In this document: one piece after another, positions 1 through 4,567 of the stretch
How the letters are laid out: each line of letters starts with the position of its first letter
How positions within the stretch are numbered: position 1 is the stretch's first letter
Source: a virus
Lineage: Duplodnaviria > Heunggongvirae > Uroviricota > Caudoviricetes
IMG/VR virus record: IMGVR_UViG_2671180473_000005
Reading direction: 5' to 3' (one strand)
Length of the DNA stretch: 4,567 bases
The notes under the pieces: generated by a model
The model's database searches: none
What the model was told of the DNA's origin: nothing
Seen by the model: only the letters and a program-made list of their open reading frames with translations
Made by a program: the position numbers and the translations under genes

Positions 1-64
1 GTCACTCTCGTCTGGGGAATATCTCCCCGGCAGCCTTCAGGGAAAAATATCATCAGATGGCTGC

Positions 65-418
65 TTAAAAAAAGAACAAATGGTAGTGTCCGCTATTGCC
101 AGTACACCTCAATTGCTCTGCGGCTTCGCTCAGAGCTGGCGTATGTTCCCGGCCTACTGATTCACACAGGTAATCAACGAAACCGGACACCAGTTTTCGT
201 TCGCGAGGCGTGATCGCCCCACCGACCGGAGTCCAGTAATCGAAACCCAGTTGCAGGAGTTTGAAAAAACGCTTGTGGAATGCGTAGTTACACACACGCT
301 TAAAGTCTGCGTGTATCCACTCACCTATTTTGATTTGATGCAGAAAATCGCAACTCTCCGGCGTCGCCGGGAGAAGTAATCCGGAAGAGGTTTGTTTGAC
401 CAGTTGTATATGTGCCAT
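65..418 (-). CDS. hypothetical prophage protein, 117 aa from the ATG; probably truncated or frameshifted at its 3' end
   Basis: Minus-strand ORF. ATG at 416-418 is preceded by GGAG about 7 nt upstream; the track ORF 65..460 starts at a TTG overlapping the upstream stop. The protein ends ...GHYHLFFF then TAA at 65-67, immediately after a 7-nt homopolymer (plus A-run 67-73). A neighbouring frame stays open to the window edge. No family recognised. Confidence 0.5.
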   Translation of the reverse strand: MAHIQLVKQTSSGLLLPATPESCDFLHQIKIGEWIHADFKRVCNYAFHKRFFKLLQLGFDYWTPVGGAITPRERKLVSGFVDYLCESVGREHTPALSEAAEQLRCTGNSGHYHLFFF

Positions 419-456
419 CGGCTTTCTCCGGTGGCACGGTGTTACACAGCAGGAGT

Positions 457-744
457 TCAATCCTGCTCAAGATTGTAGATGAGTTTATTCTTCAGCAAAA
501 GCAGAAAACCAGCCTTAAAACCAATCTCTTTCAAAACCCGTAATGATGTGACAAATTCGTCCTCACGCAAAATAAAACCGTCCGTCAGAAGTCCATTACA
601 AAAATAAAATAACACAGCACCGCTCTTCCTTTGTTGAGATTGCAAACATCTAATGCGGCAATGGCTGACAATCGCTCCATTCTCAACGCGCACAGCATAG
701 AGGCCATTTTCACTAAAAATTTCACGCAATTCTTCGATTTTCAT
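457..744 (-). CDS. hypothetical small protein, 95 aa
   Basis: Minus-strand ORF with ATG at 742-744 and an AAGGA Shine-Dalgarno about 8 nt upstream (minus sequence tggaaggattctgaagATG). Coding region is AT-rich, about 40 percent GC by hand count over 481-660. No family recognised. Confidence 0.5.
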   Translation of the reverse strand: MKIEELREIFSENGLYAVRVENGAIVSHCRIRCLQSQQRKSGAVLFYFCNGLLTDGFILREDEFVTSLRVLKEIGFKAGFLLLLKNKLIYNLEQD

Positions 745-825
745 CTTCAGAATCCTTCCAGATAAATAGCTCTCCCCTGTTCGGGGTCCATCCCTCTTCT
801 CCCTGCGCGCTACTTAAGTGAGTCG

Positions 826-853
826 ATTCTATCTGCGAAGGTGCGCGAATCAA
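826..853 (-). promoter_or_regulatory. candidate sigma70 promoter for the 457-744 gene
   Basis: Minus strand reads TTGATT (853-848), a 16-nt spacer, then TAGAAT (831-826), about 80 nt upstream of the ATG at 744. Pattern match only. Confidence 0.3.
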
Positions 854-868
854 ATTCACCGGAAATAA

Positions 869-916
869 ACAACAAAAAACCCGCCGAAACGCTGAGAGAT
901 CACAGCGATGGGCGGG
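869..916 (-). terminator. intrinsic terminator downstream of hok
   Basis: On the minus-strand transcript: GC stem cccgcc(916-911) pairing with ggcggg(885-880), inner helix cgcug/cagcg, followed directly by UUUUUUGUUGUUU (879-867). It lies about 80-125 nt 3' of the hok stop. Confidence 0.5.
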
Positions 917-957
917 TTAAGTGCGGGTGCGTTGAGGATGCCTGACACATCAGAGGT

Positions 958-985
958 GGGCGGGGATGGGATCAGCTCCCCGCCC
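958..985 (-). other. GC-rich stem-loop in the hok 3' UTR
   Basis: Perfect 9-bp inverted repeat gggcgggga (958-966) / tccccgccc (977-985) with a 10-nt loop, starting 9 nt after the hok stop. No U-tract follows, so it is probably a stabilising or fold-back element rather than a terminator. Confidence 0.35.
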
Positions 986-993
986 GGTCACTC

Positions 994-1149
994 TTACTTC
1001 CTGGATTCGTAGTCTACGAAGACAGCGACCTCCGTCTGGCCGGTTCGGATTCGTACCTCACAGAGGTCTTTCCTCGTTACCAGTGCCGTCACTATGACGG
1101 TTAAACAGATGACGATCAGGGCGATTAACATCGCCTTTTGCTGCTTCAT
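994..1149 (-). CDS. hok: Hok family type I toxin (membrane-depolarising host-killing peptide), 51 aa
   Basis: ATG at 1147-1149, TAA at 994-996. Translation MKQQKAMLIALIVICLTVIVTALVTRKDLCEVRIRTGQTEVAVFVDYESRK has the Hok transmembrane helix and conserved LCE..R..G..EVA motif and closely matches HokD/HokC-type chromosomal Hok as recalled. An alternative frame is open from the gap edge to 1058, consistent with an overlapping mok-like frame. Confidence 0.9.
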   Translation of the reverse strand: MKQQKAMLIALIVICLTVIVTALVTRKDLCEVRIRTGQTEVAVFVDYESRK

Positions 1150-1159
1150 AGCCTGCTTC

Positions 1160-1389
1160 NNNNNNNNNNNNNNNNNNNNNNNNNNNNNNNNNNNNNNNNN
1201 NNNNNNNNNNNNNNNNNNNNNNNNNNNNNNNNNNNNNNNNNNNNNNNNNNNNNNNNNNNNNNNNNNNNNNNNNNNNNNNNNNNNNNNNNNNNNNNNNNNN
1301 NNNNNNNNNNNNNNNNNNNNNNNNNNNNNNNNNNNNNNNNNNNNNNNNNNNNNNNNNNNNNNNNNNNNNNNNNNNNNNNNNNNNNNNNN
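1160..1389. other. 230-nt run of N (assembly gap or masked sequence)
   Basis: Directly visible. 230 is not a multiple of 3, so any ORF drawn across it is artefactual. Confidence 1.
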
Positions 1390-2034
1390 GATAAGAGGGC
1401 GTCCCTGAGATTTGCGGTGTAGATTGGTATCGCGCAGAGAATACACACAGCCACAATATTCCTGCTGATAGAATTTTTCGCGCTTGCTGATTTCAATCAT
1501 ACGGGACGAGCCGCCCTGCTTGCGCCAGTTATAATCCCAGTACACCATGCCCGGATAATGCGCGACGGCTCGCCGCCCACAGTCGTTAACCTGCTGCATA
1601 TTTTTCCAGCGTGAAATGCCCAGTGAACTGCTGATCACACTGAAACCATTTTCAGCGGCGTACAGCGCTGTCCGCTCAAAACGCATGTCAAAACACATGG
1701 TGCAACGGATCCCTCGTTCGGGCTCCCATTCCATTCCTTTGGCTCGTTCAAACCAGTTGTCTGTGTCGTAATCAGCATCAATAAACGGCACGCCGTGTTG
1801 TTCAGCAAAGCGAATATTCTCATCCTTACGAATTAAATACTCTTTCTGAGGATGAATGTTCGGGTTGTAGAAAAAGATGGTGTAGTCGATTCCCGAGGCC
1901 TGAAGCGCCTCCATCACCTCACCGGAACATGGAGCACAGCAAGAGTGCAGTAGTAGTTTGTTTGCCCCGTTTGGGAGCTCCAATTTGGGCCGTTTGAAAT
2001 CAGCAACTGTCATAAATATGTTTATTGGGGTCAT
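1390..2034 (-). CDS. queH: QueH/DUF208 family epoxyqueuosine reductase-like protein; 3' end lost in the N gap
   Basis: 215 codons visible from ATG 2032-2034 (alternative ATG 2011-2013) to the gap edge. Carries the motifs recalled for the family: [37 protein letters not shown]. About 25 residues precede the LLLH motif, and neither ATG has a recognisable Shine-Dalgarno. Confidence 0.8.
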
Positions 2035-2181
2035 AAAAATATCAAAGAGTGTAGCATTAGAACGGGGCTATCGGAAACAGATGTGTGACTGCTCCCCGCC
2101 CTTTCGGGTGGTCTCCTGATGATTTGAGGGTGCAGAAATCCCTCCGGTTAAGGATTAAATTTTTAACAGTGCTAAATTTAA

Positions 2182-2538
2182 TTATTCAGTTCTGGATTTT
2201 GTCGCCCTGCGTATCCGCGCTTTCGCGTTACGCTCAATCTGTATCAGCTTTTCTATATTTCTCCGCCTTTCCTGTTCCTCCTGGCGCAATAGCCTTACAT
2301 CATCTGCCAGTCTGGTTTCTCTTTTTGCCACAGAGAGCATCCAGTCAAACGGCTCCACAACCGCACCGCAGATTTTACAGCGGACCTGACGCTCTTTTTC
2401 GTCAACCCGTACAGAGGCGTGATGGCAATATGGTCTTTCCGATGGCTCATAAAGAAAATTAACCTGATTACGAGGGTCATCCTCTTTTACCGGAAATAAA
2501 ACGATATTGCTTAACTCATCTTCTGGTTTTATTTCCAT
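2182..2538 (-). CDS. small Cys/His-motif (zinc-ribbon-like) protein with a basic coiled-coil-like C-terminus, 118 aa
   Basis: ATG at 2536-2538 is preceded by AAGGAGAGGAG. The longer track ORF starts at ATG 2593-2595, which directly abuts the upstream TGA (TGAATG), so that start is possible too. Motif PYCHHASVRVDEKERQVRCKICG, then an R/E/Q-rich tail. No family recognised. Confidence 0.55.
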   Translation of the reverse strand: MEIKPEDELSNIVLFPVKEDDPRNQVNFLYEPSERPYCHHASVRVDEKERQVRCKICGAVVEPFDWMLSVAKRETRLADDVRLLRQEEQERRRNIEKLIQIERNAKARIRRATKSRTE

Positions 2539-2595
2539 GCTCCTCTCCTTTGATGCGAATGCCAGCGGTAATTGAAGCCTGATAGCTAATTTCAT

Positions 2596-3018
2596 TCACA
2601 GTATCGCCTCCTGAAAATTACCCTGATAGAAAGCCAGTACACGCTGCATAGCTTCGCTCTTCCGGCACTCGCGACAGATTATATTCAGGCGCCTGTCGTA
2701 GCGGCGTATTTCTCCGTCAGGTAATGACCAGATAAGGTCCGGATCAACAACAACCGGTTTCCTCACCTTTACTCTCGAGAGTTTTTTGCGGGCGCTTTGC
2801 CAGTCCTTGCGAGCCTGTTCAGACGGGAATAAGCCGTAGCCAGAATTATATACATCACCACTTGCGACCAGTTCTATGCATAAGCGACCGACAGACGCAC
2901 GACTGATACCTGTTTCATCTGACAACTGCCGAATCGTGACCCGACCGTCCTGATGCACGAGTTCCACAATTCGCGTCTTCAGTTCTTCCCGCTGTTCGGG
3001 AGTAAAAGGTTTCGCCAT
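2596..3018 (-). CDS. winged-helix/HTH DNA-binding protein of the phage replication operon, 140 aa
   Basis: ATG at 3016-3018 with an AGGAGG Shine-Dalgarno 5-6 nt upstream, 14 nt after the DnaC-like stop. N-terminal segment ...VTIRQLSDETGISRASVGRLCIELVASGDVY looks like a helix-turn-helix. Exact family uncertain. Confidence 0.7.
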   Translation of the reverse strand: MAKPFTPEQREELKTRIVELVHQDGRVTIRQLSDETGISRASVGRLCIELVASGDVYNSGYGLFPSEQARKDWQSARKKLSRVKVRKPVVVDPDLIWSLPDGEIRRYDRRLNIICRECRKSEAMQRVLAFYQGNFQEAIL

Positions 3019-3032
3019 AAATCCTCCTGAAA

Positions 3033-3779
3033 CTACTTAACAACCCTCGAATGGCTAACATTCGGACGCCAGCTCTCCCAGTTAAAATTCACCCAGCGCC
3101 CGCCGTTCATGACCATGCGATCCATCACCCGCTCGCCGAGCAATGTTTTCATCACCTCATAGTTCAGGTTTGTCAGCATCCCCACGCTGCGCATCGACGC
3201 TGTCCGGCGATCAACAATCTGGTGCAGCACCACCTGCTCGTTTTTCGTCTCGCGCTGAATGCCAATTTCATCAAGAACCAGCAGATCCACTTCGCACAGC
3301 TCCCGCAAAAATTTTTCGCCTGACTGCCCGTCGTCATAGCTGGCGTGCAGGGCGCTCATAACATCAGCCACGGTAACCACAATCACTGTCTGACCGTCTT
3401 TCAGCAGGCGATTCCCGATAGCTGCCGCTAAGTGATTCTTCCCGGTACCAGGTTTTCCGCTGAACGCAAAATTTGTACACCCGGTCATCAGTTCATCGGC
3501 GATGGATTTCGCCTGGCTTAACGCGTATCGCTGGCCGTCGTTCTGCACCTGGTAATTCGCAAACGAGCATTTACGGTGCAACGGCTGGATGCCTGAGCGA
3601 TTCAGAATTTTTTCCACCCGCAACTGGCGATTCAGGCGGTTGATCTCCTCGCTACGTTTCTGGCCTTCAGCAAGTTGCCACTCGCGCCACTCCGCTACCG
3701 TTCTGAATGGGGCGGTTACATGTGGCGGGGTCAGTCGGCGGATGCGTTCCAGAACGCCGCCTGTCGCAATATTTTTCAT
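3033..3779 (-). CDS. DnaC-family AAA+ helicase loader (phage replication protein, IstB-like ATPase), 248 aa
   Basis: Walker A FSGKPGTGKNHLAAAIG and Walker B DLLVLDEIG are present. ATG at 3777-3779 lies 6 nt downstream of the stop of the initiator C-terminal frame, as expected for a replication operon. Confidence 0.9.
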   Translation of the reverse strand: MKNIATGGVLERIRRLTPPHVTAPFRTVAEWREWQLAEGQKRSEEINRLNRQLRVEKILNRSGIQPLHRKCSFANYQVQNDGQRYALSQAKSIADELMTGCTNFAFSGKPGTGKNHLAAAIGNRLLKDGQTVIVVTVADVMSALHASYDDGQSGEKFLRELCEVDLLVLDEIGIQRETKNEQVVLHQIVDRRTASMRSVGMLTNLNYEVMKTLLGERVMDRMVMNGGRWVNFNWESWRPNVSHSRVVK

Positions 3780-4133
3780 GGTCCGTTACCCCCTGAAGCC
3801 TGGCGGGATCGCACTGTCCGGCAACGAGACGGTGTTAACCTGTCGGAGCAACGTCTCAGGCCGAACACCTTTCGGCGCGAACAGGCCCTGGTATTCATTG
3901 GCGATGCTGTGTCGAATCACCTGCTCAGGTGTAAAACCCTGCTGACGGAATTTTTCCAGTTCCCGTATCGCCCCGTTAGCGCCCTGCTCCGTTCGAATCG
4001 GTTTTCGCAATGCCTGTCTGAACCGGACCCACTCATGCCAGAGTGTTTCCGGCAACCAATCGGGCAGCTCAATAGCCTCCGGCTCGAATTTTTTAGACGC
4101 TCGTTTTTGGCGAGGGGGAGATCAGTATTTAGA

Positions 4134-4154
4134 TCTTCCTCTTCCTCTTCCTCT
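4134..4154. repeat. hexanucleotide tandem repeat (TCTTCC) x3.5
   Basis: tcttcc tcttcc tcttcc tct on the plus strand. On the minus strand it encodes EEEEEE in the linker frame (RGRGRG and RKRKRK in the other two). Confidence 0.9.
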
Positions 4155-4246
4155 GGTAACGCTTTTTGATCCGTTTGTGTAACGCTGGCAGCGTTACCTT
4201 TTCGTTTCAGTTCGCGTATTTTTGTTACTCGCTCGTTTGTAACCGC
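4155..4246. repeat. cluster of dyad-symmetric TGTAACGC/GCGTTACA repeats, candidate replication-origin iterons
   Basis: Perfect 19-bp palindrome GTAACGCTG-G-CAGCGTTAC at 4179-4197; further half-site copies at 4155-4162 (ggtaacgc), 4224-4228 (gttac) and 4238-4246 (tgtaaccgc); motif cgtttgt(g)taac recurs at 4172-4183 and 4234-4243. Confidence 0.4.
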
Positions 4247-4386
4247 CCGTTTTTTTTAGAGCTTTTTCCGTTATGACGTTCAAAGTTAGGTAGAGAAAGC
4301 CCTCCGTCATTTTCGACCAGCCATCCAACCTGAATTAACGCATCAGCAAAACCAGACATAAAAGTGATGCGATCTATTGCACTTTT

Positions 4387-4407
4387 TGTAACGCCGCGAG
4401 CGTTACA
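4387..4407. repeat. second palindromic copy of the TGTAACGC half-site
   Basis: tgtaacgc (4387-4394), 5-nt spacer cgcga, gcgttaca (4400-4407): perfect 8-bp arms, inside the initiator N-terminal coding region. Confidence 0.4.
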
Positions 4408-4462
4408 ATCTGCATTACCGTCTATCATTTGTTGATCCGCCCATGCCCAGAAGCGAATAACC

Positions 4463-4567
4463 TGAGGTAGCCTGAGTTTAACGGACACTCCTTCCTGAAA
4501 TAGAATGGCATCAGAAGGAGCTAATAATGAGCAGAAAAACCCAACGTTACTCTAAAGAGTTCAAAGC
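4463..4567 (+). mobile_element. left end of an IS3-family insertion sequence (IS600-like), partial
   Basis: Sequence begins TGAGGTAGCCTGAGTTTAACGGACAC at about 4463 (IS3-family ends typically start TGA). About 64 nt later a GAAGGAG Shine-Dalgarno and ATG start an OrfA-like gene. The exact boundary is not established. Confidence 0.5.
4527..4567 (+). CDS. IS3-family transposase OrfA, N-terminus only (runs off the window)
   Basis: ATG 4527-4529 with AGGAG 6 nt upstream; translation MSRKTQRYSKEFKA matches the N-terminus of IS600-type OrfA as recalled. Confidence 0.6.
   Translation, partial: MSRKTQRYSKEFK

What the first reader, a model, noticed from the sequence alone, without database searches (positions are those of the whole stretch)
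1160..1389. N gap sits exactly over the expected hok control region and the QueH 3' end
In hok/sok loci the mok start, the sok antisense RNA gene with its promoter, and the 5' translational-activator elements all lie upstream of hok, which here is entirely inside the 230 N. It therefore cannot be decided whether this hok is an intact toxin-antitoxin module, an antitoxin-less orphan, or disrupted. The track ORF 994..2034 is a false fusion of QueH and hok across the gap. A frame open from the gap edge to 1058, overlapping hok, is consistent with a mok-like frame.
Basis: partly seen in the sequence, partly recalled or inferred. Interest (0 to 1): 0.5.

Follow-up and report, generated by a model that had tools for sequence, protein, structure and literature searches.

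The report
Assembly gap hiding ordinary hok/sok control region
The run of 230 unknown bases is a sequencing or masking gap, not biology, and near-identical genomes show it almost certainly hides the standard control region of a well-known prophage toxin-antitoxin module (hokW-sokW type) plus the last 13 codons of the neighbouring QueH gene.

Summary
Window 1160-1389 is exactly 230 N, with an intact 51-aa hok on the minus strand to its left (994-1149) and QueH to its right. ORF 994-2034 is a false QueH-hok fusion that exists only because 230 N happens to keep the two frames in register.

What the gap hides can be inferred. Five independent records share the window's exact flanks and carry one identical 259-nt fill. 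It holds the QueH tail and stop, a hok promoter, the hok mRNA leader (Rfam sok, 117 bits), a mokC-like start and an antisense Sok gene. The leader is 92% identical to the tested hokW-sokW of prophage Sp5, and the window's Hok differs from HokW by one residue.

- The frame ending at 1058 is not the mok. In 99 of 99 flank-matched relatives it is closed by a stop and has no start. The real mok is in frame with hok, as in K-12 mokC.
- The N count is not the true distance. No natural locus has 215-245 nt between these flanks, while 99 viral loci have 259-273.

A private deletion or insertion in this decaying, IS-bearing prophage cannot be excluded. Ordinary and already known; low interest.

The parts
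1160..1389 (.). Run of 230 N (assembly or masking gap). It is not a biological feature. The real interval in relatives is 259-273 nt.
   Evidence: Searches give the N count. Searches give the real interval.
994..1149 (-). hok toxin CDS, 51 aa (MKQQKAML...VDYESRK). It is 50/51 identical to Sp5-type HokW and 46/51 to K-12 HokD.
   Evidence: ORF; Pfam PF01848, 81 bits; identities; PGAP names the identical gene hokD.
1146..1159 (-). Last visible bases before the gap: the hok ATG, the 9-nt spacer and the final G of the AAGGAG Shine-Dalgarno. On the + strand, TCATAGCCTGCTTC is the first 14 nt of the fragment that supplied functional sokW in Takada et al. 2021 (primer YO-406).
925..937 (-). fbi-like element in the hok 3' UTR (RNA CCUCAACGCACCC). 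It is complementary to the 5' end of the hok mRNA (GGGUGCUUGAGG), which lies in the gap.
   Evidence: in the MFE fold of the L001 mRNA the 5' end pairs with this element (z = -8.4). One search gives the coordinates; primer YO-350 of hokW matches here exactly.
874..916 (-). Hairpin plus U-run at the 3' end of the hok mRNA (intrinsic terminator).
   Evidence: terminal hairpin followed by U6; coordinates.
1390..2013 (-). Visible part of QueH (epoxyqueuosine reductase). The PGAP-equivalent start is at 2013 and the longest ORF starts at 2034. Only the last 13 codons and the stop are missing.
   Evidence: PF02677, 221 bits, profile 1-174/175; QueH ends ...GRPLI-KIGQLHYGKEEKE* in L001.
1348..1389 (-). 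Inferred by homology and not readable here: the QueH C-terminal 13 codons plus TGA (L001 4078-4119, anchored to the right gap edge).
1297..1326 (-). Inferred by homology, nominal position anchored to the right edge: hok promoter TTGATT-18-TAGAAT (L001 4056-4027). It is followed by the hok mRNA 5' end/tac motif GGGTGCTTGAGG (L001 4020-4009).
   Evidence: promoter scan; the -10 column is conserved as TAGAAT/TAAAAT/TATAAT in hokW, L002 and K-12 hokC; the Rfam model starts at 4020.
1163..1274 (+). Inferred by homology, nominal position anchored to the left edge: antisense sok gene. It has -35 TTGCCT (L001 3864-3869), -10 TAACCT (3887-3892), a start near 3899, a long hairpin and a U-run ending near 3975 (about 77 nt).
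   Evidence: hairpin -32.5 kcal/mol, z = -4.95. (K-12 sokC coordinates relative to mokC); primers YO-421/422 mutate this -10 in sokW; hexamers conserved in 95 of 99 loci.
1204..1206 (-). Inferred by homology, nominal position anchored to the left edge: ATG of the in-frame mok-like ORF (70 codons, MLCTCRLASYMPKGKEKQA + Hok; L001 3907-3695).

Best explanation
The 230 N is a gap left by assembly, scaffolding or masking. It lies in the nin-like region of a decaying lambdoid prophage in a Shigella/E. coli-type genome.

By homology it hides about 259 nt, read here on the hok strand:
- the last 13 codons and the stop of QueH;
- a sigma-70 hok promoter;
- the first 160 nt of a roughly 446-nt hok mRNA;
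- on the opposite strand, a roughly 77-nt Sok antisense RNA gene with its own promoter.

The module is of the hokW-sokW type (type I toxin-antitoxin).

Mechanism (established for R1 hok/sok and hokW-sokW, inferred here): full-length hok mRNA is kept inert because its 5' end pairs with the fbi element in the 3' UTR. Translation of hok depends on translation of the overlapping mok frame, which in this lineage is an in-frame N-terminal extension as in mokC. Unstable Sok RNA pairs with the mok start region, which blocks translation and triggers RNase III cleavage. When Sok is lost, Hok is made and depolarises the inner membrane. For Sp5, Sok was lost after RecA-dependent prophage induction.

The gap probably arose because this cassette is a dispersed repeat that short reads cannot resolve. 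Its N count is an estimate, not a length.
For: Shown directly:
- There are exactly 230 N.
- Window 112-4463 is 99.5-99.9% identical to E. coli FDAARGOS_944, where the flanks are 259 nt apart.
- Five records with the exact 20-nt flanks have identical 259-nt fills.
- That fill gives Rfam RF01794 sok at 117 bits, E 1e-27, over the full model length. The orphan K-12 hokD locus gives nothing, and neither does the window itself.
- A hok promoter is found at L001 4056-4027.
- The mRNA fold pairs the 5' end with the fbi that is visible in the window (z = -8.4).
- The antisense strand folds into a hairpin followed by a U-run (z = -4.95).
- Of 99 flank-matched viral loci, 95 keep TTGCCT, TAACCT and the in-frame ATG at -57, and 99 keep the tac motif.
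- The leader is 157/170 identical to an Sp5-type hokW-sokW allele that matches all 13 published primer cores. Hok is 50/51 identical to HokW.
- hokW-sokW was shown to act as a type I TA, with the sokW -10 mutated at this same hexamer (PMC8621323).

Repeat nature: the 259-nt fill has matches in 4320 of 5426 E. coli genomes, with a median of 2 and up to 8 places per genome. There are 3 places in the genome that carries the identical locus. K-12-type hokD copies diverge 16 nt upstream of the ATG, within 5 nt of the left gap edge.
Against: The gap itself is unread, so everything inside it is inference from relatives. The N count is 29 short of the fill. If the N replaced real bases one for one, the source would carry a 29-nt deletion seen nowhere else. 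The surrounding prophage is visibly decaying: a 10-nt deletion and a T8-versus-T6 run break a neighbouring gene, an IS end lies at 4459-4567, and DUF1367 is truncated. A private lesion in the gap is therefore not far-fetched. The repeat explanation fits the left gap edge well. It fits the right edge less well, because that edge lies 45-80 nt beyond the usual cassette boundary. The predicted sok -10 (TAACCT) has only 3 of 6 consensus bases and was not flagged by the promoter scan. Its assignment rests on the hokW mutagenesis primers and on the K-12 sokC annotation.
Confidence: 0.85

Rival explanations
1. The gap hides a damaged control region. This could be a deletion of about 29 nt (if the N count is literal), another small lesion, or an insertion-sequence insertion. 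In that case this hok copy would be deregulated or dead, as several K-12 chromosomal hok loci are.
For: The N run is 29 nt shorter than every natural interval found. The same prophage carries a 10-nt deletion, a homopolymer change, a truncated DUF1367 gene and an IS600-like end. In K-12, IS186 sits next to hokC. Four of the 99 flank-matched viral loci (a 268-nt fill) have lost the in-frame ATG and the TTGCCT hexamer at the expected offsets, so decayed copies do exist.
Against: N-run lengths in scaffolds are usually estimates. An IS insertion alone would leave the two contig ends adjacent in the reference, not 259 nt apart. The visible parts (hok CDS, fbi, terminator) are intact and identical to L001. 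The 259-nt fill is invariant in all five records with these flanks.
Confidence: 0.1
2. This is an antitoxin-less orphan hok like K-12 hokD (relF), with no leader, mok or sok upstream.
For: PGAP names the identical gene hokD. The visible window sequence upstream of the ATG (10 nt) is also shared with K-12 hokD, so the window alone cannot separate the two.
Against: In K-12 the gene upstream of hokD is relE, and homology ends 16 nt before the ATG. Here the upstream gene is QueH. All 99 viral loci, plus the chromosomal loci with a QueH-hok junction, carry the tac motif and leader. The window's Hok C-terminus (VDYESRK) is of the hokW type (VDYESEK), not the HokD type (TAYEPEE).
Confidence: 0.03
3. 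The mok of this locus is the out-of-frame, R1-type frame that the first reader noted (ending at window 1058).
For: The frame is positionally homologous to the R1 mok frame (my recollection of the R1 sequence, not tested here). It is open from the gap edge to 1058. In two viral loci (L034, L040) an ATG at -46 opens it.
Against: In 59 of 61 distinct loci and 99 of 99 flank-matched loci, that ATG is followed at once by TAG, and no start codon follows. The in-frame 70-codon ORF is conserved (95 of 99) and its N-terminus (MLCTCR...KEKQA) is homologous to the annotated K-12 MokC (MLNTCR...KEKRA). Phage records annotate the in-frame ORF as MokW-like.
Confidence: 0.03

Closest known systems
hokW-sokW of Stx2 prophage Sp5 (E. 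coli O157:H7 Sakai), Takada et al. 2021, PMC8621323
   Same: Hok is 50/51 identical. The fbi region and the hok start match primers YO-350 and YO-357 exactly in the window. In relatives with the window's flanks, the leader is 157/170 identical, with the same sok -35/-10 hexamers, tac motif and in-frame mok. Both are in lambdoid prophages.
   Different: The upstream neighbour is QueH, not the Sp5 context. The sequence downstream of the fbi, including the terminator, differs. There are 13 leader substitutions, clustered in the Sok 5' segment. The function of this allele has not been tested, and in the window the region is unread.
hokC/mokC/sokC (gef) of E. coli K-12
   Same: The Rfam family and score are the same (118 against 117 bits). 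mok is in frame with hok and has a homologous N-terminal extension. sokC starts 9 nt inside mokC, which gives the predicted Sok start here.
   Different: HokC is 50 aa. The Sok hairpin is 18 nt shorter. The locus is chromosomal rather than in a prophage, with IS186 next to it.
hokD (relF) of the Qin prophage, E. coli K-12
   Same: The toxin is 46/51 identical, and this is the name PGAP gives the window's gene. It is also in a lambdoid prophage remnant.
   Different: hokD has no hok leader, mok or sok. It lies downstream of relBE, homology starts only 16 nt before the ATG, and it gives no Rfam sok hit.
hok/sok of plasmid R1 (the archetype)
   Same: The logic is the same: Hok/Gef toxin, overlapping mok, antisense Sok, and pairing of the mRNA 5' end with its 3' fbi (mechanism from Thisted and Gerdes 1992 as cited in PMC8621323).
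   Different: HokW is only 44% identical to R1 Hok (PMC8621323). R1 mok is out of frame with hok (my knowledge, not tested here). R1 hok/sok is on a plasmid and acts in post-segregational killing, whereas hokW-sokW aids phage release.

Membership tests
hok/sok type I toxin-antitoxin | Small hydrophobic Hok/Gef-family toxin ORF | tested here: met
   Window 994-1149 (-), 51 aa, Pfam PF01848 at 81 bits against a cut-off of 22. NCBIfam Hok-family hit at 54 bits, below its cut-off of 73, obtained on the 70-aa form.
hok/sok type I toxin-antitoxin | Antisense Sok RNA gene with its own promoter, overlapping the hok leader | not testable with these tools
   The region is N in the window, and an Rfam scan of the window finds nothing. 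The feature is met in all five records with identical flanks (Rfam RF01794, 117 bits; hairpin).
hok/sok type I toxin-antitoxin | Overlapping mok reading frame that starts in the Sok target region | not testable with these tools
The start lies in the gap. In relatives an in-frame 70-codon ORF homologous to K-12 mokC is present (95 of 99 loci).
hok/sok type I toxin-antitoxin | Long-range pairing of the mRNA 5' end (tac) with the 3' fbi element | tested here: inconclusive
   The fbi half is present in the window at 925-937. The 5' half is in the gap. In L001, which is identical in the visible part, the minimum-energy fold pairs the two (z = -8.4).
hokW-sokW subtype (Sp5/933W-like prophage allele) | Near-identity to the experimentally tested locus | tested here: met
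   This holds for the visible part. Hok is 50/51 identical and primers YO-350 and YO-357 match exactly. For the hidden part it holds only by proxy: the L001 leader is 92.4% identical to the allele that matches all 13 primer cores.
Orphan hokD (relF) type | relBE upstream and no hok leader or sok | tested here: not met
   The upstream gene is QueH, not relE. No flank-matched relative lacks the leader.
QueH (epoxyqueuosine reductase, PF02677) | Full-length QueH domain | tested here: met
   Profile positions 1-174 of 175 are matched within window 1390-2034 (221 bits). Only a 13-residue tail is hidden.

The most novel reading that the evidence does not exclude
The N count is literal. In that case this strain carries a private deletion of about 29 nt, or some other lesion, inside the hok/sok control region of a decaying Shigella-type prophage. 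That would leave an intact hok CDS, fbi and terminator with a crippled Sok, mok or tac element: a natural intermediate in the conversion of a type I TA module into an orphan like K-12 hokD.
Probability: 0.07. Interest if true: 0.25.

Novelty: already known. Interest (0 to 1): 0.08.

Why it matters
It matters little for biology. The hidden element is a common and well-studied prophage hok/sok module, and one close allele has been tested experimentally.

It has some practical value for annotation:
- An N run whose length happens to be in frame produced a spurious 346-aa QueH-Hok fusion ORF.
- The N count (230) misstates the true interval (259 or more), so features cannot be placed by counting N.
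- Pipelines label this gene hokD and do not annotate its sok or mok, which invites the wrong conclusion that it is an orphan.
- The mok of this lineage is in frame with hok, so looking for an R1-style out-of-frame mok is misleading.

Tried and rejected
- Natural 230-nt variant. I scanned for the exact flanks with a 215-245 nt spacing in viral contigs and metagenome contigs, and with 230-260 nt in genome contigs. There were 0, 0 and only two 259-nt hits. None of the scans returned a record with the 230-N gap, so the window's source was not identified.
- Phage 933W. I fetched bases 10-30 kb of the record to locate hokW. Nothing there is annotated as hok, and tblastn and blastn found nothing. I anchored hokW through the published primer sequences instead.
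- NCBIfam gave no family for QueH. Pfam settled it.
- An Rfam scan of the window itself returned nothing, as expected with the leader masked.
- The consensus promoter scan did not flag the sok promoter, because its -10 has only 3 of 6 consensus bases. I assigned it from the hokW mutagenesis primers and the K-12 sokC coordinates.
- An R1-type out-of-frame mok was considered and rejected.
- An IS insertion as the cause of the gap was considered unlikely, because 259 nt of reference sequence are missing between the contig ends, which would otherwise be adjacent.
- I did not run a covariation analysis of the leader. The family is already curated in Rfam and the relatives are too similar to add information.
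- A literature search on mokC/hokC/sokC returned no paper on mok frames. The K-12 annotation served instead.

Full report
**1. The observation**

The window holds a single run of exactly 230 N at 1160-1389.

On the minus strand, immediately left of it, is an intact 51-codon hok gene at 994-1149. It matches Pfam HOK_GEF at 81 bits. Only 10 nt of its leader (1150-1159) are readable.

On the minus strand to the right is QueH. Pfam PF02677 positions 1-174 of 175 are matched inside 1390-2034.

The mechanical ORF 994..2034 reads QueH, then 77 X, then Hok. It is a false fusion. In the near-identical E. coli FDAARGOS_944 locus (L001), QueH stops 227 nt upstream of the hok ATG and the two genes are in different frames. 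They share a frame in the window only because of the particular number of N.

**2. What lies in the gap, by comparison**

Window 112-4463 is 99.5-99.9% identical to L001. In L001 the two gap edges are 259 nt apart, not 230.

A pattern scan with the window's exact 20-nt flanks found E. coli ECMA0423 and Shigella flexneri SFBU1023, both with 259 nt. Two IMG/VR contigs have the same interval. All five fills are identical base for base.

Read on the hok strand, the fill contains the following (L001 coordinates):

| Element | L001 position | Evidence |
|---|---|---|
| Last 13 QueH codons and TGA | 4119-4078 | |
| Sigma-70-like promoter TTGATT-18-TAGAAT | 4056-4027 |; the -10 column is conserved in hokW, a 269-nt variant and K-12 hokC |
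| hok mRNA leader from GGGTGCTTGAGG | from 4020 | Rfam RF01794 (sok), model 1-157 of 157, 117 bits, gathering 59, E 1e-27 |
| ATG opening a 70-codon ORF in frame with hok | 3907 | |
| Antisense -35 TTGCCT | 3864-3869 | reading; conserved |
| Antisense -10 TAACCT | 3887-3892 | reading; conserved |
| Antisense long hairpin plus U-run | ends about 3975 |, -32.5 kcal/mol, z = -4.95 |

As a control, the same Rfam scan finds sok at K-12 hokC, at an Sp5-type hokW allele and at the 259-nt loci. It finds nothing at K-12 hokD, the known orphan downstream of relBE. The window itself gives nothing.

**3. Link to a tested system**

Takada et al. 2021 (PMC8621323) showed that hokW-sokW of prophage Sp5 is a type I TA. 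They also found that sokW RNA disappears after mitomycin C, that HokW is then made in a RecA-dependent way, and that the locus doubles phage release.

Their primer table lets the locus be anchored:
- YO-350 (over the fbi region) and YO-357 (the hok start) match the window exactly.
- YO-406 is the boundary of the fragment that supplied sokW from its own promoter. It matches L001, and its first 14 nt are the last bases before the N.
- YO-421 changes TAGGTTAG to CCGGCTCG, which alters the TAACCT hexamer I assign as the sok -10. This is my reading of the primer; the figure is not held.

Locus L018 matches all 13 primer cores. Its leader is 157/170 identical to the L001 fill. Its Hok differs from the window's by one residue, giving 50/51 identity. 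The window's Hok is 46/51 identical to K-12 HokD.

**4. The visible half fits an intact module**

The window keeps the 3' UTR element CCUCAACGCACCC (925-937) and the terminal hairpin plus U-run (874-916). In the fold of the L001 mRNA, which is identical to the window in the visible part, the 5' GGGUGCUUGAGG pairs with that element (z = -8.4). This is the fbi/tac arrangement known for hok mRNAs. The first 160 of about 446 mRNA nucleotides are hidden.

**5. The mok question**

In relatives, that frame has an ATG followed at once by TAG 43 nt upstream of the hok ATG, and no ATG, GTG or TTG after it. This holds for 59 of 61 distinct loci found through the protein. It also holds for 99 of 99 loci found only through the DNA flanks, a set that carries no bias towards either frame. 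Two loci (L034, L040) do open the frame.

By contrast, the in-frame ATG at -57 is kept in 95 of 99 loci. The encoded extension (MLCTCRLASYMPKGKEKQA) is homologous to K-12 MokC (MLNTCRVPLTDRKVKEKRA), whose annotated CDS shares its stop with hokC. Phage HannyBb annotates the same 70-aa ORF as MokW-like.

K-12 sokC begins 9 nt inside mokC, which places the Sok start here near L001 3899.

**6. The N count**

No locus with these flanks has 215-245 nt between them in 2.9 million viral contigs or 241 million metagenome records. In contrast, 99 viral loci have 259 (18 loci), 268 (12), 269 (67) or 273 (2) nt.

So 230 is either a scaffolder's estimate or reflects a private 29-nt difference. I cannot tell which.

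**7. Why a gap here**

This part is inference. The 259-nt fill is a dispersed repeat. It has matches in 4320 of 5426 complete E. coli genomes, with a median of 2 and up to 8 places per genome, and 3 places in the genome with the identical locus.

K-12-type hokD copies share the CDS and diverge 16 nt upstream of the ATG, within 5 nt of the left gap edge. That is where a short-read assembly graph would fork. The right edge is explained less well.

**8. Context and caveat**

The surrounding prophage is degrading:
- A 10-nt deletion between GGGGGA repeats at 4119/4120 and a T8-versus-T6 run at 4250-4257 break a 262-aa gene.
- An IS3-family end (orfA MSRKTQRYSKEFK) starts near 4459.
- DUF1367 is truncated at about 112.

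A private lesion inside the gap is therefore possible, and I give it about 0.1.

**9. Verdict**

The hidden feature is an ordinary, already known hokW-sokW-type module next to QueH. The gap is an artefact. Interest is low.

Noticed in passing
window 4459-4567: This is the left end of an IS3-family element, with orfA starting at 4527 (MSRKTQRYSKEFK). From memory it looks like IS600, which I did not test. It replaces the rest of the prophage gene found in L001. The same 109 nt occur elsewhere, to the left of the hok region, in E. coli ECMA0423 and S. flexneri SFBU1023. This suggests an IS-rich, Shigella-like source.
   Followed up: partly
window 4119/4120 and 4250-4257: Relative to FDAARGOS_944 the window has a 10-nt deletion between GGGGGA direct repeats and a T8 run in place of T6. 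Together they split a 262-aa hypothetical (replication-region) gene into ORFs 3786-4055 and 4225-4488. This is either a pseudogene or, for the T run, a homopolymer sequencing error.
   Followed up: partly
window 1-112: The sequence diverges from L001 at about 112, so the DUF1367 gene is cut to 131 aa (Pfam positions 1-102 of 198). In L003 and L004 the same 112 nt are present but lie 61 nt further away.
   Followed up: no
L001 3894-3889 (minus strand), equivalent to the masked part of the window: At the position where R1-type loci have the mok start, nearly all relatives have ATG followed at once by TAG, a start-stop mini-ORF. Two viral loci (L034, L040) lack the stop and so have an R1-style out-of-frame mok. 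I did not examine whether the start-stop has a role.
   Followed up: partly
L001 3695-4120, and RefSeq records: PGAP names the toxin hokD and annotates neither sok nor mok at these loci. The only feature listed under the 259-nt control region is the QueH tail, so intact type I TA modules look like orphans in RefSeq.
   Followed up: no
L002 and the other 269-nt variants (alignment A1, columns 121-133): The commonest variant of the QueH-hok interval (269 nt, 67 of 99 viral loci) carries about 10 extra nt between the hok -35 and -10 regions, compared with the 259-nt type. This should change the hok promoter spacing.
   Followed up: no
four viral loci with a 268-nt fill: These copies lack the in-frame ATG at -57 and the TTGCCT hexamer at the expected offsets. 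They may be decayed hok/sok copies, or a 1-nt indel may have shifted my fixed-offset checks.
   Followed up: no
L088 (phage HannyBb), 588-1144: In this phage, about 550 nt with two small annotated ORFs lie between the MokW-like gene and the QueH homologue. The QueH-hok junction is therefore a site where cassettes are swapped.
   Followed up: no
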